Assembly: GCA_040776945.1 (NCBI GenBank)
Contig: JAXGZN010000001.1
Location: 416,001 to 480,000, forward strand
Reading direction: 5' to 3'
Length of the DNA stretch: 64,000 bases
Source: Methanomassiliicoccaceae archaeon
GTDB taxonomy: Archaea > Thermoplasmatota > Thermoplasmata > Methanomassiliicoccales > Methanomassiliicoccaceae
This document shows, piece after piece, positions 33,837 to 48,402 of the stretch; the stretch's first letter is position 1, and each line of letters starts with the position of its first letter. The notes under the pieces were generated by a model. It ran no database searches and had not been told where the DNA came from. It saw only the letters and a program-made list of their open reading frames with translations. The position numbers and the translations under genes were made by a program.

Positions 33837-33982
33837 GCACCGTCATGGCCATAGGAAGGCTATTAGGCTTTATGCGAACGGGACGGTCCATCCCAACGCT
33901 GCTTTGTCGATCGCGGAAAAAGGTTGCCTGTCGATCGGGCAAGGTTAAGAACGTGGTCATCAAGCCTTGGTCAAGATTTGAT

Positions 33983-34012
33983 AAAGTGCAGGGGAAGGGA
34001 TTTGAACCCCCG
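33983..34012. repeat. 30-bp copy of the tRNA-Leu 3' end (secondary att remnant)
   Basis: AAAGTGCAGGGGAAGGGATTTGAACCCCCG, identical to 34658-34687 and 48315-48344. Confidence 0.9.
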
Positions 34013-34091
34013 GATTGCAAAGGAGATACGATGTCAATCATGTCTCCGCTTCGAAAATGAATTAATAATTATTGAAGCGTTAACGCAACAC

Positions 34092-34547
34092 ATGGCTTCC
34101 TGTCCTGTATGCAAGGAAGAGGGGATAGTGGTAGAGAAGATCACTGTGGCGAACCACGTAAAAGAATCATGTTGGCCACTTGGTGAAGAGGTGTTCCATT
34201 TCTGTGATAACCCTGACTGCGAGGTCATCTATTTCACCGCCTCAGGCAACAGGGTCATAAAAAAGACCGGTGTGAAGACCAGGGTCACCTTCAAGGTAAA
34301 GGACTCCCCGAGGCCACTGTGCTATTGCAAGCAGGTCACTGAAGAAGACGTGATCGACGCCATAAGGAACGGTGCCAAGACCTTCGAGGAGGTAAAGTTG
34401 GTTACAGGCATAGGTGGCGGGGGCCAATGCAAGGTGACTAATCCATCGGGCCGATGCTGTTCTAGGAATTATCGGCCGTTCATAGAGAGGGAGCTAAAGA
34501 AAAGGGGCTACGGCCAACCAAGCGACATCAACATAGTCTTCCAATAG
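34092..34547 (+). CDS. CopZ-N-like Zn/[2Fe-2S] (BFD-like) metallochaperone
   Basis: CPVC, FCDNPDCEVIYF, LCYC and CKVTNPSGRCC motifs. Confidence 0.85.
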   Translation: MASCPVCKEEGIVVEKITVANHVKESCWPLGEEVFHFCDNPDCEVIYFTASGNRVIKKTGVKTRVTFKVKDSPRPLCYCKQVTEEDVIDAIRNGAKTFEEVKLVTGIGGGGQCKVTNPSGRCCSRNYRPFIERELKKRGYGQPSDINIVFQ

Positions 34548-34657: not shown

Positions 34658-34714
34658 AAAGTGCAGGGGAAGGGATTTGAACCCCCGAACCACTAAGGAT
34701 AAGACCCTGAATCT
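34658..34714. repeat. att site: 57-bp direct repeat of the tRNA-Leu 3' half
   Basis: AAAGTGCAGGGGAAGGGATTTGAACCCCCGAACCACTAAGGATAAGACCCTGAATCT, identical to 48315-48371. Confidence 0.97.
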
Positions 34715-34895: not shown

Positions 34896-36295
34896 ATGCC
34901 CAAGATTGATATATCGGAAGGGTTCAGAGTTCAGGGCGAATGGTGGCTCCCTGGAAAAATCAGTAACTCTGTTCCAGGCTCACTATCATATGATAAACAA
35001 TCGGGTTTAGAACTATTATTAAACGGGACGTTCGACGGGTCCATATTTCAGGATGATTCTCGGCAGGAGATAATCCATGGAAATTCGGAGAATGGCATTG
35101 TCACACTTTTCAAATGTGGGAGAGGCTCCAACAACACAAATATCACCAGTGTAAGTAGCGGAACATTTGCTCTAATTAAGACGAAATTCAAACCGAGAAT
35201 GGCTTTTTTTGGAGCTCATTTTTTACGAGAAGAAGATATGGAATTCAAAGGGGCAACTGTTAATTTACAATATATGAGAGAATGGACTGGGAAATCGGGC
35301 TTCGTCACCAACACTCCTCCTTCACTTGAGGAAGCATCAATAAAATATGTCACCCTAAAAGATGTTATTGCATCTTACAATGAGAATACAATAAAGATAG
35401 GATTACGTTACAATAAAAATCTGAACTGGGATGAGGAATCGATAAGACAAACTGCCTTCGTTGATTTTTCGTTCGCAACTGATCTAGATATTTGGGGTCT
35501 AATTTCACATATCAAACGGTTTAGAGATTTGATCAGCCTCGGTATAAAGAGAAGAACCACACCTCTCAGCATAGAAGTTGAGCTAAAAAACCCAGCGTCC
35601 ATTGAAAGCAAGTCGAATGGGATTGAGTTGATCTTCCCACCGCTTAATGCCCAAACAGGAAAAGATAAGCTTACGCCAGCGGACATGATGTTTTGGCTTC
35701 ACGATTTAGAGGCTAATCTAGGCAGCTATCTTACTAATTGGTATGGCGATGAATCCAAACTACAGCCTGCAATGATCTCTATTTCGGCTCCTTATATAAT
35801 CCTGATTTATACGATTACAACAAATTTCTAAATCTAATCCAAGCGATTGAATCATACCATAGGAAAAACTATGGTGGGACTGGGCTACCAGTGGAAGAAT
35901 ATAATAAGCTGACAACTATGCTAATAGCAGTGGCCCCAGGCGAGTATAAAGAGTTTTTGAAAGATTTTTTTAAGTATGAAAATGAGGTCAGTTTAAGGAA
36001 ACGGTTAAAAGAAATATATAAGATGCACAAATCCGCAGTAGAACCTTTTATTCCAGATAGGGATGAGTTTATTGGGCTTACGCTCGATACACGCAATTAT
36101 CTGACGCACTACGGCAAAGACCTTGAGGAAAAGGCAGCAAAGGGTGCGGAATTGTTCTTCCTCACGACTAGGCTTGAACTCGTTATTGAAATAATATTCT
36201 TATCTGAAATTGGATTCGTTGATGAGGATATAAAAAATGTACTTGATAGACATTGGCTATATCTTCGGCTCAAAAAAGCAGATGCACCTGGATGA
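34896..36295 (+). pseudogene. ApeA-like protein (ApeA N-terminal domain plus HEPN RNase), frameshifted near 35770
   Basis: N-terminus GEWWLPG...VPGSLSYD...LELLLNG. The -1 frame from 35771 reads NDLYFGSLYN...FLNLIQAIESYHR and continues into ORF 35891-36295, which carries the HEPN motif RNYLTH. Confidence 0.8.
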
Positions 36296-38365: not shown

Positions 38366-40522
38366 CTAATCTATAGTTCCAATCTCTTCCTTATTTAATT
38401 TTGAGGTGGGGATAATTACCCACTTGGTCATACCTTCCCCATTTACTTTTGGTCTCTTCTCGGTTGTCCAATTTCCTACACCAAAGATATCATTCAGGGC
38501 CCTTGGTACTAGGCTATGTGCAATGTTATCCCTTTCTTTATCGTTGATTAGATCTGGCAAATCCGCTTTCAAGTGCAATTTTATACCATACCATGTCTGA
38601 CCCTTCGCTTTTAGGTTAGTTATGTATTCTAGGTCATTTTTCAAGGATAAAATTGCTGCAGAGGAGTAAGCTTCAAGATAATCCATTCCTGGTTCAGCTT
38701 TTTCAGGTAGATCGTTCTCTTCGACTTGTATAACTTGTTCAGAGCTCGTTTCAATTTCGACCTTTATTGCTTGTGGTATCTTTTCAGCAGCTACCCCAAA
38801 CTTTTTCTTTAATTCCAGAGCATATGTTTTGCCTTCCTTTTTGTCATATTTTGAATCTATGGGCTTATACAATTCCTCAAAGGACAGGATTCTGATAGGT
38901 ATTGGATAACTCTTGCCACCAGCACTGCTCCAGAACACACCATTGCCTACGATCGGCTCATTTAACAAGGCGGAGAGTATGTCATCAGAGAAGTGAGCAT
39001 TTGCCCTCTTCAAAGATTGCAGATCATTAGCCGATAGGAGGTGGAATACAAACCAATTATCTCCTTGGCTTAGTATCTGTCCATCAATGCTACCGGGCTG
39101 CTGAGTAATTAGTATCGCACCGAGATCGTACTTGCGTCCTTCCTTGACCCAAGCAACGTAGGGTTTTGTTGCCCCATAGTTACCTAATACCGATTGTGCC
39201 TCTTCGATGACGGCAATAGTTGGAATGGTTGCTGGATTCGCCTCAGTGAATTGTTGCTGATTGAAATCGAATATCTTTTGTAAAATCATCCCCGAAAGCA
39301 CCAGAGATATCTCGCCCCTTAGCTGCGAAATATCGATGATACATAGCTTTCCGTCCTTCAATGAATTCAGAAGCATGTCTAGCATCTGACTGCTGGGATC
39401 GTGGAGCATACGCACGATTTTGGTCATATTTGCCCGTGCTGCGACCATCTCTGCTGTTTGATCCTCTTTTAGATGAAGCAACTCCAACATTGTCTCTTCA
39501 TCCGCCATGTTTTCGCTCTTATGAATTAAATCTACAAGCTTTCTCCAGTTCTCATCGTTCAGATTTTTTAACTTTGTGACGTTTTGCTGCTCTTGCTTCT
39601 CTGGAGGCAGAGCGATGGAGATTACGTCTGAAGCCTTGAGCCGTCTAATATCGAATCTAATGGAGCTGGCAACAAATGATTGGTAAAATTTGCTAGGGCT
39701 CTTTTTGCTCGAAAAAATTACAACTTTATCCTCGAGCTCCGGTACATCACAAAGGCCTGGTCGCCCCTTGTCATCAGGCCAATAGTATTCTCCATCTGGA
39801 TCGAAAATTATCGTACCGACAGGTACCTTGGTACCCCCTCTTTTCTCCACTGTTGGGGTTTCTTTGTAAAGGCTGCTGAACAGTAATTTGTTGAGGTTTG
39901 ATTTACCAAACCCTGCTCTGGCAAAAACAAAAGATCTTCTGGATACCAGGTTTTTTATCGGAAATTTTGACACGACAGCTGGATTTAGTATTCTCATCCA
40001 GTTTTCGATTTTACATCTTTTATCGTTACCAGCATAGATGAACTCCCCCAGGCCGAAAAATCCTATATCTGCCCCGTCGATGTTGTGCCCAGCCACCTCT
40101 TTGAGGAGCTCATCCGACAAAAAGGCTACTTTACTCCCAACATGGGGTAACCGTCTATGGGAAGCCGCAAAGACAACCTCCCCGTCGTTTACCCTCAGAA
40201 CGCCTAACACTCGTATCTCAACACAATATTTCAGGTATTGTTCACGCAAGTCCTCTGGTATAGATCGATCGTCAGCTACTGCCCTGATGCCGTAGTCTTC
40301 GCCAGATCCAGAAGTTAGTCTGCCTTCAGCTGATATTGACGCAATGCGACCAAGCACTCCCTCTTCCTCACTCTCTAGTTGAATTAGGACAAATTGACCA
40401 TGCATTGGAGCTGTTTGAAAGCTGTTCTTGTATGGCAGTATTATTTCGGCATGAAACTCTAAACCGCCTTGTTTAAATCCCCTGAATATCCCCACAATAT
40501 TCTCTTTTTCAAACAATTTCAT
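38366..40522 (-). CDS. HerA/FtsK-family ATPase (HAS barrel plus DUF87-like domain)
   Basis: N-terminal barrel (GQFVLIQ, LGRI, LPHVGSKV), Walker A ARAGFGKS, Walker B IAVIEEAQ, EGRKY arginine finger, ITQQP. Confidence 0.9.
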   Translation of the reverse strand: MKLFEKENIVGIFRGFKQGGLEFHAEIILPYKNSFQTAPMHGQFVLIQLESEEEGVLGRIASISAEGRLTSGSGEDYGIRAVADDRSIPEDLREQYLKYCVEIRVLGVLRVNDGEVVFAASHRRLPHVGSKVAFLSDELLKEVAGHNIDGADIGFFGLGEFIYAGNDKRCKIENWMRILNPAVVSKFPIKNLVSRRSFVFARAGFGKSNLNKLLFSSLYKETPTVEKRGGTKVPVGTIIFDPDGEYYWPDDKGRPGLCDVPELEDKVVIFSSKKSPSKFYQSFVASSIRFDIRRLKASDVISIALPPEKQEQQNVTKLKNLNDENWRKLVDLIHKSENMADEETMLELLHLKEDQTAEMVAARANMTKIVRMLHDPSSQMLDMLLNSLKDGKLCIIDISQLRGEISLVLSGMILQKIFDFNQQQFTEANPATIPTIAVIEEAQSVLGNYGATKPYVAWVKEGRKYDLGAILITQQPGSIDGQILSQGDNWFVFHLLSANDLQSLKRANAHFSDDILSALLNEPIVGNGVFWSSAGGKSYPIPIRILSFEELYKPIDSKYDKKEGKTYALELKKKFGVAAEKIPQAIKVEIETSSEQVIQVEENDLPEKAEPGMDYLEAYSSAAILSLKNDLEYITNLKAKGQTWYGIKLHLKADLPDLINDKERDNIAHSLVPRALNDIFGVGNWTTEKRPKVNGEGMTKWVIIPTSKLNKEEIGTID

Positions 40523-41676
40523 TCGTATCGCCTCTGTGAAAGATCTGTGTAAAACCGAATGGAGTCGACTGCCCTCCCCTTGTTAGCTGGAAGCATTTTG
40601 ATAACCGAGTTGAAAATTTGGTCCTGAAATATTTCAAGGTCAAAATCAACTATCTGTGCATGCTCATGGGCTTTTTGTAGGCATAATGGGTAAAATGGTA
40701 CAGGGAATCCATTTATAGCGTCATTTAGCAGATACCCAAAGATTTCTTGGGCATGTTGTTTTTGTTCCGAAAATACATCGACAGCCCATACAGGATCTCC
40801 AGATCGTTTCCCAAAACGGACAAGGAACATATCCCCAGCAACAAACTTCGGAGCCTCAGTGTCCTCCCCCTCCACCTCACGGCCCTTGGCGTACTCTTCC
40901 CAAATGTAAGCTTTAGCTTCCAGATTGCGTGGAATAGGAACATACCAAGGTTCTCCACCGGGGAAGATGTCCTCTATACCCATTGCAAGGCGGTACCTGT
41001 CTATAACCTTGGAGTGCTTAGCTACCCCTACTAAAAACACTTTCCTTCTATCTTCTTTGTATATTTTTTGAATTGCATTTTCAATGTTCTTTCGTACTGT
41101 GATGAAGAGATCCTTCGAAAATAGTTTACATCTCAGCTGGCCATCCCTTACCACTAAGGTGTTCGTGGCAAATGAATCATAAACAATCCTCTCATATAAG
41201 ACGGCCCATTCGCACAGGTCCCGGTAAACCAGGACCCATCCTGGTTTTACTGAGTCGGGTTTGTTCCGTATCTTCTCCCCATAAGGAATCATGCCACTTA
41301 GCTCGTGTAATGTGTCCACCCCTAGATCCCTCATCATTTTTCCGAGGGCGGTTTTTGGGGTGCCGTCATCGCCAAATTGCCGCCTACTCAATTCATCAGT
41401 ATCTGTCGACGGCGAAACTACATCCAGACATAGATTCTTACCGTACGAATCGGTAACCCTTACTAGTTGCATAAAGAAAGGATCAAAAGCGAGTTTGTTA
41501 TTGCCACCATCACTAGCTACCAAGGAGACGGCAGTCACAGAGCGTGGCTGAATCTTCTTTACTTCAGGTTTTACCTGTCTGATTTCGGCACATATCTCAT
41601 CCAGTAGACGAATATCTGCCTTCGCTCGCTCCGTTATCATATCCCTAAGTTCAACTAAAGTGTCCGTATCCAACAT
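40519..41676 (-). CDS. NurA-family nuclease
   Basis: VASDGG, VVRDGQL, LVGVAKHS and YPLCLQKAHEHAQI motifs; ATGA overlap with the HerA gene. Confidence 0.82.
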   Translation of the reverse strand: MLDTDTLVELRDMITERAKADIRLLDEICAEIRQVKPEVKKIQPRSVTAVSLVASDGGNNKLAFDPFFMQLVRVTDSYGKNLCLDVVSPSTDTDELSRRQFGDDGTPKTALGKMMRDLGVDTLHELSGMIPYGEKIRNKPDSVKPGWVLVYRDLCEWAVLYERIVYDSFATNTLVVRDGQLRCKLFSKDLFITVRKNIENAIQKIYKEDRRKVFLVGVAKHSKVIDRYRLAMGIEDIFPGGEPWYVPIPRNLEAKAYIWEEYAKGREVEGEDTEAPKFVAGDMFLVRFGKRSGDPVWAVDVFSEQKQHAQEIFGYLLNDAINGFPVPFYPLCLQKAHEHAQIVDFDLEIFQDQIFNSVIKMLPANKGRAVDSIRFYTDLSQRRYE

Positions 41677-41680
41677 TGAA

Positions 41681-42748
41681 TCACTTCAGCACCGCAAAGC
41701 AATCAAGCTCCTGGTTGGCCTTGCCAATCGATGTTCCAAAATGCTCTGCTTGCCTGTTTCCTCGGCCTGGCATTCCTGCCGATATAATTGCCTGTATATC
41801 CCAATCCGCCTCTAGGGTGCTTTCCAATATTTCCCTTGCAGTTCCTTTAAAGGATGGGAGTACGCCCAATCGGATGACTAGCTTCGCTCTCTTAGTGCAA
41901 ACATCGGCAACATTTTTCCATACTTTTTTAAGATCGTCTTCGAAATCATTGAGTGAGATGTGCGAAATCTGGTTGGGTTTTGTATAGTCGACTTTCCAAG
42001 GTCCACCAACAAACCAGTTCCTCAGCCATTGGTCTTGTTTGTAAGTGACCATCCCCAGGTAAGGTGGTGATGTTATTACCCAACTAAATTTGACACCAGC
42101 CTCAACTTGGAAAGTTTTTCTTGAGTCTTGGTCGATAATGAATCCATTTGTTCTATCTGGTAATGTTTTGAAAACAAATTCAGCTCTTCTCTTCACAACT
42201 TCTTTTACATCAATTTTTGGTGGTTCTAGGCCTTTTTTATGCCAATAATTAACCGAATATTTGGGCTTGGTTGAGAATGTCCTTGGCATTTGATTAGATA
42301 GGTAGGAAATGGTGTTGACATTTCTGGGCCCATGTAAAATGCCCAACATAATCGCTCTCAGAGCAATCTCAGCATCCGTTTCACAGCTGTTCAATAAATA
42401 TTCACGAATTTTACATATCTGTTTGAGCGTTGAACTAGAATAACAGTGCTCCCAGAATTCACCCTCTGGAATATCAAAACTCAGTTTTGAACCAAGGATA
42501 TGTCCACATAAACGAGTAACCTCATTGGCTGTTGTTGATACTAATTTTGCCTTTGAAATAGCACAGGCAACTTGATTTGAATCGATACCGACAGAGTTAC
42601 AACTTTTAATCCTTGCTGCAAAAAGTGTTGTGCCTCTACCGCAAAATGGGTCCAGTACCCATTCATTCCTATTTGCGGTTGATAGGATTTCATAAGGGAA
42701 GGTCAAAGGGTACATGGTAAAATATGGACAAATAGAGTTCAATCTCAA
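41681..42748 (-). CDS. Amino-DNA methyltransferase (probably N4-cytosine, alpha motif order)
   Basis: Motif X YFTMYP, motif I VLDPFCGRGTT, motif IV ITSPPY. The start is uncertain because the frame stays open a short way upstream. Confidence 0.88.
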   Translation of the reverse strand: MRLNSICPYFTMYPLTFPYEILSTANRNEWVLDPFCGRGTTLFAARIKSCNSVGIDSNQVACAISKAKLVSTTANEVTRLCGHILGSKLSFDIPEGEFWEHCYSSSTLKQICKIREYLLNSCETDAEIALRAIMLGILHGPRNVNTISYLSNQMPRTFSTKPKYSVNYWHKKGLEPPKIDVKEVVKRRAEFVFKTLPDRTNGFIIDQDSRKTFQVEAGVKFSWVITSPPYLGMVTYKQDQWLRNWFVGGPWKVDYTKPNQISHISLNDFEDDLKKVWKNVADVCTKRAKLVIRLGVLPSFKGTAREILESTLEADWDIQAIISAGMPGRGNRQAEHFGTSIGKANQELDCFAVLK

Positions 42749-43138: not shown

Positions 43139-43669
43139 ATGAATCCGTTATTCCCATCATATGAACTATCTTGGAGAACTGAAGAGGATGATGCTTTTCG
43201 ACAGAGTAGTGCTTGGAAAAAGATACGTCTTAGGATACTAAATCGAGATGATTATACATGTGCTTATTGTGGTTATCGAGCCGAGAAGTATCAACAGGTA
43301 AATCATATTGATGGAAATCCAAAAAACAATGATGATTCAAATCTAGAAGTGATCTGTCCCGAATGTCACAAGGTCATGCACTCTGGACTTTGGTGTAAAG
43401 TCAAGAAAACAATGATATTATTCGAGTCATCGAACTATTCGCAGACCGAGATAATCAGAATAACGAGAGAGATGCGTTCTCAGGGCAAGAAGGATGATGA
43501 GATTATCGACTACTTGGGGCTAAAGAACCGAATGCCTTGGATGCAGGACCTCGCCTATCTCAAGCCTCTTTTTGCGTTTATTACATCAGCTCCTGAAATA
43601 GATTCCCCGAAACGTTATTTGTCAGAAGAGAAGCAGAAATATAATGCGATAAATAGAGACAAGTGGTAA
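43139..43669 (+). CDS. HNH endonuclease
   Basis: WKKIRLRILNRDDYTCAYCG...VNHIDGNPKNNDDSNLEVICPECHKVMH. Confidence 0.92.
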   Translation: MNPLFPSYELSWRTEEDDAFRQSSAWKKIRLRILNRDDYTCAYCGYRAEKYQQVNHIDGNPKNNDDSNLEVICPECHKVMHSGLWCKVKKTMILFESSNYSQTEIIRITREMRSQGKKDDEIIDYLGLKNRMPWMQDLAYLKPLFAFITSAPEIDSPKRYLSEEKQKYNAINRDKW

Positions 43670-45510: not shown

Positions 45511-47177
45511 CCTGACCTCCCGGGTTTTAGGCACATGGTCGGTCGAGGTCGAGCTCCAACGCCTCGATGATCTTGCGCTGTCTCTTCGTCACCTCGCCGG
45601 TGACGAAGCTGCCGTCCGGCAGCTCCATCCTTCGGACCTTCGATAGCTCCAGCATGATGGACGGGAGCGAGTGGTCACGGCATAGGCCGCTCGAACGCAT
45701 CAGCGCCAGCAGCCTGGACCGGACGATCAGCGCCACGAAGTTCACGAAGATCGTTCCCTTGACCACATCGACCTTCTGCGCTCTGAGCGGCAGGGAGGCC
45801 AGATCGTTCTTCAACGAATAGAACATCTTCTCGATGATGTCGCGTTCCCGGGACCACGACAGGCACTCCTGCCAGCTGTGCCGGCCGGAGTGCAGGATGA
45901 TCATCTTCCCGGCCCGGTTCAGCCGGGCCGATACCGCTTTCTTCTTGACGTCAACGATGAACCTGCGGCCGTCCAGCTTCCAGCCGAAGTACTGTGCCAG
46001 CGCTCCCGCCTCCTCCTCGAACACCCTGGCGGGGCTCTGCCAGGGGCGAACGTCCCTCGACTCCAGCCTGGTCTTGACGCGGTCGAGCCACTCGTAGAAG
46101 GAGGTCTTCTCCTCCTGCTCCCGCCTGAGGTCGTAATAGAGGTAGCCGTCCACGTCCAGCTCGCCGAGCCGGAGCGTCACCTCCTTGACGAAGAAGGTCT
46201 CGTTCTCCAGCTTGCGCAGGTAGGCCGCGTCCTCGATCTCCGCATGGCTCTTGGAGACGATGCTCTTCGCTTCGTCCAGCCGCATCGGCGCAGGCATGAT
46301 GAAATCGTATCCGGCGGAGAGGATGTCGGCTAGGTTCGACTGAGAGTAAAAACCGCGGTCCATGATGAGGACCGGAGCGTCCAGTCCGAGGGAACGAAGC
46401 AGCGCGACGGTGTTCCTGATGGTGCTGACGTCGGCGATGGAGCCTGGATAGGTCTGGAAGCCCAGCGGTATTCCGAGCGTTTTGTGGGCGATGATCGACA
46501 GATTCATCTGCGGAAGTCCGTCACCGTCACGGTTGTGGCCGTACTCCAGTGTCTCCAGCAGCTTCGATGAGGAGGAGAACGAGGTGATGTCGTACAGCAG
46601 CGGCCCCTGGCGTCCGACATTGTCCAGGAGCAGTTCGGTGAACTGCTCCGGTATCGAGCTGCCTCCCAGCGCCGCGAAGAAGTCGCTCAGTGTCTGCGAG
46701 GACAGCGGAAGATCGCCCCACTCTCTCGAGAGGAACGTTCTTTCATACCATGTCTTCACGTTGCTGACCGAGCAGGGGTCGACCACGCGGTTCACCGCCA
46801 AGGCCAGGGCGGTCCTGGCCTTGTCCTCCGGCAGCAGCCGGTCCAGCATTGAATCGAGATCCAGGTCCCGGACGATCTTGAGCGCCGGCAGCAGATCGCC
46901 GTAATCGAAGGCATTGCGCGGCAGCGCCTTCCGAACCCGCTTCGCCTCCCCGTCGATCAGCTTGCCCAGGTACTTCGACCGCTGCCTGGTCTTCTTCGTG
47001 GCGGCATCGTAGTACGGCGTGATCTCGTACACGTAATCGATGCCGTTGATGTTCTTGACGCGGGTGAAGGGCCTCATATACTATGCCTATATAGGCATAG
47101 TACTATTAAAGCACTGTGAAGCATGCTGGCCGTGAGGCGATCAACGGAAGTTAGTGCCTAAAAGTCGGGAGGTCAGG
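45511..47177 (-). mobile_element. IS1634-family insertion sequence
   Basis: 24-bp TIRs CCTGACCTCCCGGGTTTTAGGCAC and GTGCCTAAAAGTCGGGAGGTCAGG (22/24 match); 6-bp target duplication TACTTT at 45505-45510 and 47178-47183; GC-rich relative to the island. Confidence 0.95.
45527..47077 (-). CDS. IS1634-family DDE transposase
   Basis: LYDITS, YGHNRDG, GSIAD, IMDRGFYS and IEKMFYSLKNDL motifs. Confidence 0.93.
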   Translation of the reverse strand: MRPFTRVKNINGIDYVYEITPYYDAATKKTRQRSKYLGKLIDGEAKRVRKALPRNAFDYGDLLPALKIVRDLDLDSMLDRLLPEDKARTALALAVNRVVDPCSVSNVKTWYERTFLSREWGDLPLSSQTLSDFFAALGGSSIPEQFTELLLDNVGRQGPLLYDITSFSSSSKLLETLEYGHNRDGDGLPQMNLSIIAHKTLGIPLGFQTYPGSIADVSTIRNTVALLRSLGLDAPVLIMDRGFYSQSNLADILSAGYDFIMPAPMRLDEAKSIVSKSHAEIEDAAYLRKLENETFFVKEVTLRLGELDVDGYLYYDLRREQEEKTSFYEWLDRVKTRLESRDVRPWQSPARVFEEEAGALAQYFGWKLDGRRFIVDVKKKAVSARLNRAGKMIILHSGRHSWQECLSWSRERDIIEKMFYSLKNDLASLPLRAQKVDVVKGTIFVNFVALIVRSRLLALMRSSGLCRDHSLPSIMLELSKVRRMELPDGSFVTGEVTKRQRKIIEALELDLDRPCA

Positions 47178-47307: not shown

Positions 47308-48192
47308 CTACAGCCGAGGAACCCCTTTATTGTATGCTTCCCTCATCGCCCTGTCGTTGATGTGCAGGTAAATCGTGGTAGTGCTGATGTCCGAGTGTCC
47401 AAGCATATGAGAAAGATGGAACAGGTCACACCCGTTGCCTAGCATGGCCGTGGCGAAGCTGTGCCTTAAAACGTGAGGGGTTACCTTTTCCTTGAGATTC
47501 GCACGTACTGCACACCGCCTGATGGTGTCCTGAATGGCGTAGGCAGACCACCGGTTACCCTTGGCCGAGAGGAACAACGGATCGGTGGGCTTCGGCCGGT
47601 CATGGTACTTAGGGATGTAAGTGGCGATCAGCTTGCACACATCTTCCGATAGCGGGATTTCCCTTTCCTTGTCCCTCTTCGCATGTCGCACCGTTAAACG
47701 CCTGAGAACGAGGTCTACGTCGCCTATATTGAGCATTCTTAGCTCGTTGAGCCTGAGCCCCGTTGTGCAGAAGATCTTCAACAGGGCGTATTCCCTGAAG
47801 TCCCTAGAGGCTTTGCAGAGCTGTTTCATCTGTGCCTCAGTTAGGTACCTAGGGTTACGTTTCTTCGCTCGGGGCTTGCGGAACTTGACCTTCATCCCCC
47901 TCCACTCGCAGTAGTACTCAAGTCCCATGAGCAGGTGTCTCTGGTGCGACTTGGAGTAGCTAGACGACCACACCCTCACTGCAATGTCGTCGATATCCTT
48001 CCTGGTGGGGAAGGGGTTGTTGTTGTCCCTGAGAAGCTTGTTAACGAAGCCATCAATCATCCTAGCCCACGTTCGACCCATCCCTTTGTGCGTCAAAAGC
48101 CACGCAAGGAATGTCATCTCGGTCTCTGGCTCGCACTGCTCTTTTAGAATATCTTGTGCCGTGATTCGGCTTAGTTCGTCGTTTTCCCTCAT
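47308..48192 (-). CDS. Tyrosine recombinase / integrase
   Basis: TGLRLNEL, HAKRDKER, TPHVLRHSFAT and LGHSDISTTTIY: full R-K-H-R-H-Y set. Confidence 0.95.
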   Translation of the reverse strand: MRENDELSRITAQDILKEQCEPETEMTFLAWLLTHKGMGRTWARMIDGFVNKLLRDNNNPFPTRKDIDDIAVRVWSSSYSKSHQRHLLMGLEYYCEWRGMKVKFRKPRAKKRNPRYLTEAQMKQLCKASRDFREYALLKIFCTTGLRLNELRMLNIGDVDLVLRRLTVRHAKRDKEREIPLSEDVCKLIATYIPKYHDRPKPTDPLFLSAKGNRWSAYAIQDTIRRCAVRANLKEKVTPHVLRHSFATAMLGNGCDLFHLSHMLGHSDISTTTIYLHINDRAMREAYNKGVPRL

Positions 48193-48318
48193 GCTGGCTC
48201 ACCTTCCGTCCAGCACGAACTGGCTAGCCAAGCTTGGCCACAGAGAGCCCGAAGGGATCTCGTGACCGAAGGGAAATCGGCGTAAGAGCTTAGTCAACCA
48301 GAATAGTAGAATCAAAAG

Positions 48319-48402
48319 TGCAGGGGAAGGGATTTGAACCCCCGAACCACTAAGGATAAGACCCTGAATCTTACGCCGTTGGCCAAGCTTGGCTACCCCT
48401 GC
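48319..48402 (-). tRNA. tRNA-Leu (CAG), the integration target
   Basis: Reverse complement GCAGGGGTAGCCAAGCTTGGCCAACGGCGTAAGATTCAGGGTCTTATCCTTAGTGGTTCGGGGGTTCAAATCCCTTCCCCTGCA, with a long variable arm. Confidence 0.97.

What the first reader, a model, noticed from the sequence alone, without database searches (positions are those of the whole stretch)
38366..42748. Coupled DNA methyltransferase-NurA-HerA operon in a mobile defence island: candidate undescribed anti-phage or restriction system
Seen in the sequence: three intact, co-oriented genes. The MTase (DPFCGRGTT/TSPPY) is 4 bp from a NurA-like nuclease, which overlaps (ATGA) a 718-aa HerA ATPase. All are AT-rich and sit inside a tRNA-integrated element among HEPN, REase-like and HNH genes. 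Established: housekeeping archaeal HerA-NurA is normally encoded with Mre11/Rad50 for DNA end resection, and HerA paired with other effectors (SIR2-HerA, DUF4297-HerA) acts in anti-phage defence. Here no mre11/rad50 is adjacent, and the HerA has variant motifs (Walker A ARAGFGKS, Walker B IEEAQ) and a long C-terminal tail. Inference: the MTase marks self DNA (SPPY suggests m4C) and a HerA-NurA translocase-nuclease degrades unmodified or linear invading DNA, an RM-like system built from resection machinery. I do not recognise this triad as a named system, but I cannot confirm novelty without a search.
Basis: partly seen in the sequence, partly recalled or inferred. Interest (0 to 1): 0.88.

Follow-up and report, generated by a model that had tools for sequence, protein, structure and literature searches.

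The report
Methylase-linked TdpAB-like nuclease-motor cassette
A mobile three-gene cassette (DNA methylase, NurA-like nuclease, HerA motor) sits in a tRNA-integrated island of an archaeal genome and recurs across about 20 phyla; it looks like a methylation-based cousin of the recently described TdpAB restriction machine, which would make it an unnamed but not unprecedented kind of restriction system.

Summary
Three intact, co-oriented minus-strand genes lie at 38366-42748: MTase, then a 4-nt gap, then a NurA-like gene that overlaps HerA by ATGA. They sit in a 13.7-kb low-GC element flanked by perfect 57-nt repeats of the tRNA-Leu 3' end.

The triad is a conserved cassette. In 49 of 60 assessable related loci, from about 20 phyla, a full-length MTase lies directly upstream of NurA-HerA. 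No fourth gene is conserved.

It is not the housekeeping machinery. The genome has a separate herA-mre11-rad50 cluster, and the NurA-like gene was found in 0 of 40 relatives.

The closest solved relatives are TdpA and TdpB, the HerA/NurA-like restriction half of the phosphorothioate R-M system TdpABC (2025). An MTase-NurA-like-HerA-like (TdtA) operon is also known on Thermus ICEth1, where it serves DNA donation.

My best reading (about 0.5) is a methylation-linked TdpAB-like restriction module, that is, a new variant of a known kind.

The main caveat is that the MTase was lost at least 4 separate times while NurA-HerA stayed intact. In 4 of 5 such genomes no family MTase was found elsewhere, so strict dependence on methylation is doubtful. 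No name for the triad turned up in nine full-text searches.

The parts
41681..42748 (-). DNA amino-methyltransferase, 355 aa, TTG start. Motif I DPFCGRGTT lies at aa 33-41 and motif IV TSPPY at aa 226-230, so motif I comes before motif IV (alpha-like order).
   Evidence: PF01555 E 7.7e-11. PADLOC MTase_II E 3.9e-17 over aa 27-248. Both motifs are invariant in 30 homologues.
40519..41676 (-). NurA-like / TdpB-like RNase-H-fold nuclease, 385 aa. D56, E156, D178, D319 and D346 are invariant.
   Evidence: No Pfam or PADLOC hit. AF2 model: pLDDT 87.9, pTM 0.85. Foldseek best hits are TdpB 8wfd_G/8wet_G at E 7e-11, TM 0.60-0.65, followed by Argonaute PIWI domains. The profile matches TdpB at E 4.4e-7.
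38366..40522 (-). HerA-family hexameric-ATPase-type translocase, 718 aa. Walker A is FARAGFGKSN and Walker B is VIEEAQ. A variable acidic linker spans about aa 575-612 and is followed by a C-terminal domain.
   Evidence: PF01935 E 4.8e-20. Best PDB sequence match is TdpA 8wet_A at E 5.7e-20. 31-sequence alignment. The start overlaps the NurA-like stop by ATGA.
38408..38686 (-). HerA C-terminal domain (aa 613-705): four helices plus a beta-hairpin, winged-helix-like. TdpA's match ends at query aa 557, so TdpA has no counterpart.
   Evidence: AF2 model pLDDT 87.7. Foldseek gave no hit at E<=1e-3; the best resemblances are winged-helix domains (PadR, TFE-alpha, the N-terminal domain of plant OMTs) at TM 0.3-0.44. 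Conserved D614, W644, P656, G681, W685 and W701.
34658..34714 (.). Distal att repeat of the integrated element: a 57-nt exact copy of the tRNA-Leu 3' part.
48315..48371 (.). Proximal att repeat, overlapping the 3' part of tRNA-Leu(cag) at 48318-48402 (-).
47308..48192 (-). Tyrosine recombinase (integrase) of the element.
   Evidence: PF00589 E 8.9e-41. Best NCBIfam match is archaeal XerA-type at 182.6 bits, below its cut-off of 220.

Best explanation
The three genes form a self-contained, horizontally mobile, modification-linked restriction cassette of the TdpAB type.

The amino-methyltransferase marks the host's DNA. N4-cytosine is suggested by its SPPY motif, but the target is unknown. The HerA-family ATPase threads double-stranded DNA, presumably as a hexamer, and feeds it to the TdpB/NurA-like RNase-H-fold nuclease, which degrades DNA that lacks the mark. 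The mark would slow or block the motor-nuclease on self DNA, as phosphorothioate is reported to do for TdpAB (recalled, not seen here). The HerA C-terminal winged-helix-like domain, which TdpA lacks, is a candidate DNA or mark reader.

Shown here:
- the gene anatomy and tight coupling;
- conservation of the triad as a unit;
- intact catalytic motifs in all three proteins;
- the fold of the nuclease and its nearest solved relative;
- mobility, and separateness from the housekeeping herA-mre11-rad50 cluster.

Inferred: HerA-nuclease complex formation, DNA degradation, protection by methylation, and anti-phage or anti-plasmid function.
For: 1. Coupling. The MTase-nuclease gap is 4 nt and the nuclease/HerA junction is an ATGA overlap.

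2. Conservation. Of 66 related loci, 60 have enough upstream sequence to judge. 49 of these 60 carry a full-length MTase directly upstream (median gap 2 nt). The NurA stop and HerA start overlap by 4 nt in 44 of 55 loci. Clustering of all flanking ORFs found no fourth conserved gene.

3. Co-inheritance. Pairwise distances correlate across 39 complete triads: MTase-NurA r 0.75, MTase-HerA r 0.80, NurA-HerA r 0.93. In each case 0 of 999 permutations reached the observed value.

4. Nearest solved relatives:
- HerA: TdpA, E 5.7e-20; the next best is 5e-11.
- Nuclease profile: TdpB, E 4.4e-7.
- Nuclease fold: TdpB, E 7e-11, TM 0.60-0.65 over the full length.
TdpABC is listed as a phosphorothioate-based R-M system (passages in PMC12914056, and PMC13223576).

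5. Intact motifs. The Walker A and B motifs, MTase motifs I and IV, and the acidic residues of the nuclease are invariant in 30-31 homologues.

6. Not housekeeping:
- The island HerA is 27% and 23% identical to the genome's two other HerA genes.
- One of those sits beside Mre11 (E 1.8e-29) and Rad50 (E 3.4e-48).
- The island protein is 50-70% identical to homologues in other phyla.
- The nuclease was found in 0 of 40 relatives searched.

7. Mobile context. The element is 13.7 kb and low in GC, flanked by 57-nt repeats at tRNA-Leu. It carries an integrase, a split ApeA-like gene and an HNH gene.

8. Contigs from four RNA-library runs match parts of all three genes at 99-100% identity and bridge the MTase/nuclease junction. 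This is consistent with transcription. DNA carry-over is not excluded.
Against: 1. The MTase is missing from 8 of 60 assessable loci although NurA-HerA is intact there. On the NurA tree this needs at least 4 changes. One of them covers a clade of four Nocardiopsidaceae species. In 4 of 5 such genomes no MTase of this family was found anywhere; the fifth has an unlinked relative at E 1.5e-20 (the completeness of these genomes was not given). A nuclease that kills unmethylated self DNA should not survive loss of its MTase.

2. The MTase is conserved along its whole length, with no obviously hypervariable target-recognition segment. That is unusual for sequence-specific R-M methylases.

3. The only experimentally studied operon with this gene content, on Thermus ICEth1, was assigned to DNA donation. 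Deleting its methylase had only minor effects (passages).

4. The neighbourhoods of related loci are heterogeneous. The 118 nearest flanking ORFs from 58 loci fall into 112 Pfam families. ResIII in 4 ORFs is the commonest, and many are housekeeping genes.

5. The cassette was absent from 72,556 plasmid records and 50,697 phage records at E<=1e-5. Among 2.9 million viral contigs it appeared only as 2 truncated copies.

6. Similarity to TdpA and TdpB is remote: 16-17% identity in the fold alignment, and only partial sequence matches.

7. No experiment or methylome was available.
Confidence: 0.5

Rival explanations
1. Modification-independent NurA-HerA effector with an accessory methylase. The motor-nuclease is an autonomous defence or DNA-end-degrading machine. 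It would be controlled by access to free ends or by an infection cue, as in SIR2-HerA or DUF4297-HerA. The MTase would be an add-on that protects against other restriction systems or tunes activity, rather than the self/non-self switch.
For: NurA-HerA persists intact without the MTase in 8 of 60 loci, which needs at least 4 changes on the tree, including a four-species clade. No family MTase was found elsewhere in 4 of 5 such genomes. The HerA C-terminal domain is retained in the MTase-less lineages. NurA and HerA distances correlate more tightly with each other (r 0.93) than with the MTase (r 0.75-0.80).
Against: A full-length MTase lies directly upstream, at a median of 2 nt, in 49 of 60 loci spread over about 20 phyla, and it is co-inherited with the pair. 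An unrelated hitch-hiker would be expected to be lost or swapped far more often. The nearest characterised relatives, TdpAB, are coupled to a modification enzyme.
Confidence: 0.2
2. ICEth1-like DNA-processing and DNA-donation module. The nuclease and HerA translocase cut and pump DNA for transfer or maintenance of the integrated element, as NurA-like/TdtA do in Thermus 'transjugation'. The methylase would be a minor accessory.
For: ICEth1 is a roughly 14-kb element at a tRNA 3' end, flanked by 47-bp repeats. It has an integrase, a DDE transposase and a co-transcribed operon containing a NurA-like gene (377 aa), HerA-like TdtA (568 aa) and a PF01555 methylase (passages of PMC5365140, and of PMC7767461). 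The window's element is 13.7 kb at a tRNA 3' end, flanked by 57-nt repeats, with an integrase and an IS1634 transposase.
Against: No type IIG restriction enzyme accompanies the triad here, although one is required in ICEth1; HerA is the only ORF in the island longer than 520 aa. TdtA lacks the roughly 150-aa C-terminal extension (568 against 718 aa). In related loci the triad is not regularly next to integrases: none appears among families found in 2 or more of 118 flanking ORFs. No match was found on plasmids. Orthology to the Thermus genes could not be tested because no Thermus sequence could be reached with these tools.
Confidence: 0.15
3. A spare DNA-repair (end-resection) HerA-NurA paralogue.
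For: The HerA/NurA-like pairing with overlapping genes is the classic repair arrangement (recalled; Constantinesco et al. 2004, seen here only as a reference-list entry).
Against: The genome has its own herA-mre11-rad50 cluster. The island copy is only 23-27% identical to the genome's other HerA genes. It was found in 0 of 40 relatives. It lies in a low-GC integrated element. It scores far below the repair equivalog cut-offs: 53-55 bits against 800-970. It is linked to an MTase.
Confidence: 0.05

Closest known systems
TdpABC, the phosphorothioate-based R-M system of extreme thermophiles (An et al. 2025, Nat Chem Biol 21:1160). The paper is not held. I saw only citing passages and PDB entries 8wet/8wfd/8y1k.
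   Same: Both are three-gene modification-plus-restriction layouts in which the restriction half is a HerA-like ATPase (TdpA) plus a NurA-like nuclease (TdpB). TdpA is the best PDB sequence match of the window's HerA (E 5.7e-20). TdpB is the best sequence match (E 4.4e-7) and fold match (E 7e-11, TM 0.60-0.65) of the middle protein.
   Different: The modification gene here is a PF01555-type amino-methyltransferase, not the phosphorothioation enzyme TdpC. HerA carries an extra linker and a winged-helix-like C-terminal domain (718 aa against 586 aa). Similarity is remote, at 16-17% identity in the fold alignment. The hosts are mostly mesophilic environmental bacteria and archaea.
ICEth1 'DNA secretion' operon of Thermus thermophilus HB27: TthHB27I/Tth111II, NurA-like TTC1878, TdtA TTC1879, methylase TTC1880 (PMC5365140 and PMC7767461; passages read).
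   Same: A NurA-like nuclease, a HerA-family ATPase and a PF01555 methylase are co-transcribed. They lie on a roughly 14-kb element integrated at a tRNA 3' end, flanked by direct repeats, with an integrase and a DDE transposase.
   Different: In ICEth1 the methylase is downstream of the ATPase and a type IIG restriction enzyme is part of the operon. TdtA is 568 aa and has no C-terminal extension. The assigned function is DNA donation, and deleting the methylase had minor effects. Sequence relatedness was not testable here.
Archaeal/bacterial repair HerA-NurA, encoded with Mre11-Rad50
   Same: A HerA ATPase (PF01935) is paired with an RNase-H-fold nuclease, with translationally coupled genes.
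   Different: There is no Mre11 or Rad50 next to it, and no PF09376 hit. The pair scores far below the HerA and NurA equivalog cut-offs. It is horizontally mobile and linked to an MTase. The host's repair cluster lies elsewhere.
HerA-effector defence systems (SIR2-HerA, DUF4297-HerA)
   Same: A HerA-family ATPase is partnered with an effector in mobile or defence contexts. Structures of these HerA proteins are weaker PDB hits, at E 5e-11 to 8e-6.
   Different: The effector here is a NurA/TdpB-like nuclease, not SIR2 or DUF4297, and an MTase is part of the cassette. NCBIfam HerA_antiphage scores 59.8 bits against a cut-off of 800.

Membership tests
HerA/DUF87 ATPases (PF01935) | Pfam match above the gathering score; Walker A and Walker B motifs | tested here: met
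   73 bits against a cut-off of 23.2. FARAGFGKSN and VIEEAQ are invariant in 31 sequences.
Repair HerA (NCBIfam NF040819 / NF040937 equivalogs) | Score above the equivalog cut-off; herA adjacent to mre11/rad50 | tested here: not met
   53.3 and 55.4 bits against cut-offs of 970 and 800. mre11 and rad50 lie on contig C2 beside another herA.
Canonical NurA (PF09376 / NF041033) | Family-model match above the cut-off | tested here: not met
   No Pfam hit. NF041033 scores 12.5 bits against 400. PF09376 finds nothing in the whole genome. Atlas neighbour clusters carry PF09376 on only 17-30% of their members.
Canonical NurA (PF09376 / NF041033) | RNase-H-like fold with conserved acidic catalytic residues, encoded next to herA | tested here: met
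   The model's best hits are TdpB and then PIWI domains; no classical NurA chain is among the 46 best-ranked chains printed (ranks up to 50). D56, E156, D178, D319 and D346 are invariant. The gene overlaps herA by ATGA. Assigning these residues to the active site is inference.
TdpABC | TdpA-like ATPase and TdpB-like nuclease as neighbours | tested here: met
   Both are the best PDB matches, but at remote similarity.
TdpABC | TdpC phosphorothioation enzyme in the cluster; PT-modified DNA | tested here: not met
   The third gene is a PF01555 methyltransferase. No other gene is conserved in the cluster. The PT modification itself is not testable here.
Classical R-M (Types I-III) | DNA MTase with motifs I and IV | tested here: met
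   DPFCGRGTT and TSPPY are present. PADLOC MTase_II E 3.9e-17.
Classical R-M (Types I-III) | Cognate restriction subunit of a known REase/Res/HsdR type | tested here: not met
   The partner proteins are a HerA ATPase and an RNase-H-fold nuclease. The middle protein has no PADLOC REase hit.
ICEth1 DSS operon | NurA-like, HerA-like and PF01555 methylase genes in one operon on a tRNA-integrated element | tested here: met
   compared with passages. The match is in architecture only.
ICEth1 DSS operon | Type IIG restriction enzyme in the operon; orthology to TdtA/TTC1878 | tested here: inconclusive
   No IIG-sized gene is present in the island, so that feature is not met. Orthology was not testable, because no Thermus sequence could be reached with these tools.
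MADS (mad1-8) | Eight-gene mad cluster | tested here: not met
   Only a partial mad8 hit on HerA (E 1.2e-11) and generic MTase_II hits. The middle protein has no hit, and the cassette has three genes.

The most novel reading that the evidence does not exclude
This is a widespread, unnamed class of restriction system. It has about 2,500 clusters at 90% identity, and its related loci come from about 20 phyla. In it a HerA-type hexameric DNA pump and an RNase-H-fold nuclease read base methylation, rather than phosphorothioate, while threading DNA. The family-specific winged-helix-like tail of HerA would serve as the mark or DNA reader. The lineages without the MTase would show the same machine working under a different control. 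If so, HerA-NurA restriction would be a general platform onto which different DNA modifications have been plugged.
Probability: 0.4. Interest if true: 0.75.

Novelty: new variant of a known kind. Interest (0 to 1): 0.6.

Why it matters
If the cassette restricts unmethylated DNA, the TdpAB principle extends beyond its known setting. That principle is a ring translocase plus an RNase-H-fold nuclease that discriminates self by a DNA modification. It would move from a phosphorothioate curiosity of thermophiles to ordinary base methylation in many phyla, including methanogen-related archaea of digesters.

It would also raise a sharp mechanistic question: how does a sequence-independent motor sense a methyl mark?

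The natural MTase-less lineages offer ready-made comparisons. The cassette is compact (3.4 kb excluding flanks) and occurs in cultured organisms: Methylacidiphilum fumariolicum SolV, Herbidospora and Methanosarcina horonobensis. It is therefore directly testable.

It may also prompt a re-reading of the Thermus ICEth1 NurA-TdtA-methylase operon.

Tried and rejected
Complex prediction. I tested the MTase as partner against the NurA-like protein plus the HerA C-terminal domain. The score was 0.00 and the verdict was 'no answer'. This counts neither for nor against binding.

The TdpABC paper is not held. What I say about its mechanism beyond the cited passages is recalled.

The listing of cluster members on 10 divergent family members returned no organism names, so it did not help to place the Thermus or Tdp proteins.

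I could not obtain T. thermophilus HB27 TTC1878-1880, or full TdpA/TdpB sequences as usable ids. No joint phylogeny was therefore made.

A 716-718-aa protein shared by three MTase-less actinobacterial loci is only 26-28% conserved, lies at varying distance, and is unrelated to the triad. I rejected it as a replacement partner.

The Pfam census of flanks covered 118 of the 343 candidate flanking ORFs. These were the ones nearest the triad; ORFs touching locus ends were dropped first. ORF calling in high-GC loci is noisy, so some of the ORFs may be spurious.

RNA-library contigs cannot prove transcription, strand or operon structure. Parts without cover are not interpreted.

Literature searches for a named MTase-NurA-HerA system found only the Thermus operon and TdpABC citations. 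Subscription journals and supplementary files were not searchable. A current DefenseFinder or PADLOC release was not available; only PADLOC-DB v2.0.0 was.

The Rfam SSU search of the own genome failed and was not repeated. The archaeal assignment of the host rests on three things: the herA-mre11-rad50 cluster, archaeal-type regulator and XerA hits, and the nearest relatives of the cassette.

Full report
WHAT IS THERE

On the minus strand of the window lie three ORFs:
- 41681-42748: 355 aa, TTG start.
- 40519-41676: 385 aa.
- 38366-40522: 718 aa.

The first ends in TGA. Four bases later the second starts. The second's TGA overlaps the third's ATG as ATGA.

The first protein carries DPFCGRGTT (aa 33-41) and TSPPY (aa 226-230). 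It matches PF01555 at E 7.7e-11, over the motif I part only. It also matches PADLOC type II methyltransferase models, the best at E 3.9e-17 over aa 27-248. Motif I precedes motif IV by about 190 residues, which is an alpha-like arrangement. That classification, and the link between SPPY and N4-cytosine, are recalled and were not tested.

The third protein is a HerA-family ATPase: PF01935 at E 4.8e-20, 73 bits.

The middle protein matches nothing in Pfam or PADLOC. In NCBIfam it matches only NurA_Sulf, at E 0.062.

THE ELEMENT

GC falls from about 0.6 to 0.37-0.46 between 34 and 45 kb. A perfect 57-nt direct repeat lies at 34658-34714 and 48315-48371. The second copy is the 3' part of tRNA-Leu(cag) at 48318-48402. 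A degenerate third copy lies at 33983-34039.

Inside the 13.7-kb element are:
- a tyrosine recombinase (47308-48192);
- an IS1634-family transposase (45527-47077);
- an HNH protein (43139-43669);
- an ApeA-like gene split into two ORFs (34896-35831 and 35891-36295), matching PADLOC PDC-S58 positions 4-282 and 324-446;

IS THE TRIAD MORE THAN A LOCAL COINCIDENCE?

The middle protein has 2,465 homologues at E<=1e-3 in the 90%-clustered collection. The best 120 are 61-83% identical, and most are 382-390 aa long. The named ones come from Methanosarcina, ANME-2, Methanoperedens, Calderihabitans and Acidobacteria. A profile search of 1.84 billion 50%-identity representatives found 494 clusters at E<=1e-3 and 167 at E<=1e-30. 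The family is tight and moderately sized.

A scan of one genome per species returned 66 loci. By their record titles these come from about 20 phyla of Bacteria and Archaea.

The tally is as follows. 60 loci have at least 1150 nt upstream of the nuclease gene. Of these:
- 49 have a full-length MTase homologue (43-54% identity) directly upstream, with a median gap of 2 nt;
- 2 have MTase remnants (L004, L060);
- 1 has the MTase downstream of HerA (L034);
- 8 have none within the fetched flanks (L033, L048, L049, L051, L052, L055, L061, L064).

The nuclease stop and HerA start overlap by 4 nt in 44 of 55 loci. Several copies are decayed (L014, L060, L062, L066).

All-against-all clustering of flanking ORFs found no further gene shared by more than a handful of loci.

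In 39 complete triads (window included), pairwise distances of the three proteins are correlated: MTase-NurA 0.75, MTase-HerA 0.80, NurA-HerA 0.93. In each case 0 of 999 permutations reached the observed value. The MTase therefore travels with the pair rather than being swapped, although it diverges faster.

WHAT THE PROTEINS ARE

An AlphaFold2 model of the middle protein, built from a 30-sequence alignment, has pLDDT 87.9 and pTM 0.85. Foldseek against the PDB gives TdpB (8wfd_G, 8wet_G) at E 7e-11 and 1.4e-10, with TM 0.60-0.65 over the full length. Next come Argonaute PIWI domains at E about 1e-3 and weaker, TM about 0.25. No classical NurA chain is among the 46 best-ranked chains printed, whose ranks run up to 50. 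The family profile also finds TdpB as its only significant PDB sequence match (E 4.4e-7).

D56 (in SDGG), E156, D178 (in RDG), D319 and D346 are invariant. This fits an RNase-H-type metal site; assigning them to the active site is inference.

HerA's best PDB sequence match is TdpA (8wet_A, E 5.7e-20, query aa 362-557 against chain 391-586). It ranks ahead of other HerA-family chains, including crystallised archaeal HerA 4d2i (E 5e-11 to 8e-6).

In a 31-sequence alignment, FARAGFGKSN and VIEEAQ are invariant. These are ordinary Walker A and B motifs, not deviant ones. After aa 557 come a variable acidic linker and a conserved domain of about 95 aa (D614, W644, P656, G681, W685, W701), which TdpA does not cover. 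Modelled on its own (pLDDT 87.7), this domain is four helices plus a beta-hairpin. Foldseek gives no hit at E<=1e-3. The nearest shapes are winged-helix domains at TM 0.3-0.44. 'Winged-helix-like' is therefore a weak assignment.

The MTase is conserved along its whole length in 30 homologues, with both catalytic motifs invariant and no clearly hypervariable segment.

NOT THE HOUSEKEEPING MACHINERY

The genome is 2.17 Mb in 2 contigs and 99.8% complete. It has three strong DUF87 matches and one weak one.

One of the other copies (C2:130562-132142) is followed by genes whose best NCBIfam families are Mre11 (E 1.8e-29) and Rad50 (E 3.4e-48). All three scores are below the equivalog cut-offs.

The island HerA is 27% and 23% identical to the other two copies. 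PF09376 (NurA) finds nothing in this genome.

The nuclease profile was found in 0 of 40 relatives: 10 of the same genus, 13 of the same family and 17 of the same order. On the NurA tree the window's copy groups with copies from ANME-2, Methanomethylovorans and Methanoperedens (SH-aLRT 99; quick tree).

WHAT IS ALREADY KNOWN

Nine full-text searches found no named MTase-NurA-HerA defence system. They did surface two close precedents.

First, TdpABC. Passages in PMC12914056 describe it as a third phosphorothioate system of extremophiles in which tdpC alone makes the modification, with a GpsATC consensus. A table in PMC13223576 lists TdpABC under PT-based R-M. The PDB titles read 'TdpAB in complex with AMPPNP and DNA'. 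The primary paper (An et al. 2025) is not held. I recall from its abstract that TdpA is a hexameric translocase, that TdpB is the nuclease, and that phosphorothioate on self DNA restrains the complex.

Second, ICEth1 of Thermus thermophilus HB27. This is a roughly 14-kb element at a tRNA 3' end with 47-bp repeats, an XerC-type integrase and a DDE transposase. Its four-gene operon encodes a type IIG restriction enzyme, a NurA-like nuclease (377 aa), the HerA-like TdtA (568 aa) and a PF01555 methylase (410 aa). TdtA, the nuclease and the restriction enzyme are needed for DNA donation ('transjugation'). The methylase is largely dispensable for it (passages).

I could not obtain the Thermus sequences, so relatedness is unknown. 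TdtA's length shows that it lacks the C-terminal extension.

MOST LIKELY MECHANISM

The evidence points to a methylation-linked TdpAB-type restriction module. That evidence is:
- the tight and widely conserved coupling of a DNA methylase to the pair;
- co-inheritance of the three genes;
- intact catalytic motifs;
- horizontal mobility;
- TdpAB as the nearest solved relatives of both proteins.

In this model the MTase marks self DNA, HerA threads DNA, and the nuclease degrades DNA lacking the mark. I put this at about 0.5.

AGAINST IT

The strongest contrary fact is that NurA-HerA survives intact without the MTase in 8 of 60 loci. The NurA tree needs at least 4 changes of that state. One change covers a clade of four Nocardiopsidaceae species, which implies stable maintenance. 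A profile of the MTase found no family member anywhere in four of five such genomes; the fifth has an unlinked relative at E 1.5e-20 (completeness of these genomes was not given). This fits a motor-nuclease that is not intrinsically lethal to unmethylated self DNA.

Other points against:
- The MTase has no evident variable target-recognition region.
- Only a minority of related loci sit next to recognisable defence genes. Among the 118 nearest flanking ORFs from 58 loci there were 112 Pfam families. ResIII occurred in 4 ORFs and N6_Mtase, PF01555, UvrD and AbiE in 1-2 each. The rest included GcvP, DNA polymerase III alpha, GAPDH and gyrase B.
- The family gave no match in 72,556 plasmid records or 50,697 phage records.
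- In 2.9 million viral contigs it appeared only as two near-identical remnants: a full MTase, half a nuclease gene and no HerA.

EXPRESSION AND OCCURRENCE

The exact 4.4-kb stretch is present in contigs of 14 DNA runs from wastewater, sludge or digester metagenomes, spanning 6 studies; some of these may be the source of the assembly. It is also present at 0.38-0.72 of sampled words in 6 RNA-library runs.

I laid four of the RNA-library runs on the element. Contigs at 99-100% identity cover parts of all three genes. Four contigs, one per run, bridge the MTase/nuclease junction. This is compatible with transcription of the cassette. It does not exclude DNA carry-over, and it says nothing about strand or expression level.

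VERDICT

Its interpretation as an R-M-like system built on a HerA/NurA-type machine is plausible, and it now has a direct precedent in TdpABC. It is best filed as a new variant of a known kind rather than as categorically new.

Dependence on methylation is the open and testable point. The natural MTase-less lineages make it doubtful in its strict form.

Noticed in passing
window 34896-35831 and 35891-36295 (+): An ApeA-like defence gene is split into two ORFs: ApeA_NTD1 at E 4.5e-41 and HEPN_Apea at E 5.7e-25. They match PADLOC PDC-S58 positions 4-282 and 324-446 of 461. This is probably a broken or split copy in the same island.
   Followed up: partly
window 33983-34039: A third, degenerate copy of the att/tRNA-Leu 3' repeat (68% overall, first 30 nt identical) lies 675 nt outside the distal att site. 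It falls inside the 5' end of the ORF 33924-34547, which has CopZ-like zinc-binding and BFD-like hits. It may be the scar of an earlier integration.
   Followed up: no
window 45527-47077 (-): An IS1634-family transposase (246.5 bits, cut-off 100) with host-like GC (0.62 at 46-47 kb) sits inside the low-GC island, between the integrase and the cargo genes.
   Followed up: partly
L048, L051, L055, L064 (Nocardiopsidaceae); also L049, L052, L033, L061: These lineages keep intact NurA-like and HerA genes but have no MTase. In L048 the pair lies next to a DUF2397 gene (E 5e-153). From memory I associate DUF2397 with Wadjet-like clusters.
   Followed up: partly
L008, L031, L038; L003, L004, L045: In 3 loci the triad sits next to a ResIII helicase-type gene plus a large PF01555 methylase (type III R-M-like). 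In 3 other loci it sits next to a UvrD-PD-(D/E)XK fusion.
   Followed up: partly
window 39741-39760: One RNA-library contig (run X17) shows five G>A differences within 20 nt of the HerA gene. This could be a strain variant or an assembly error.
   Followed up: no
L076, L077 (IMG/VR contigs): Two near-identical viral contigs carry a full MTase homologue (49% identity) followed by only the first 186 residues of the nuclease, with no HerA. This is a decayed copy.
   Followed up: partly
G000 C1:967663-969288: A third HerA/DUF87 gene (541 aa, 104.7 bits) with an acidic N-terminal extension lies among apparently housekeeping genes. Its role was not examined.
   Followed up: no
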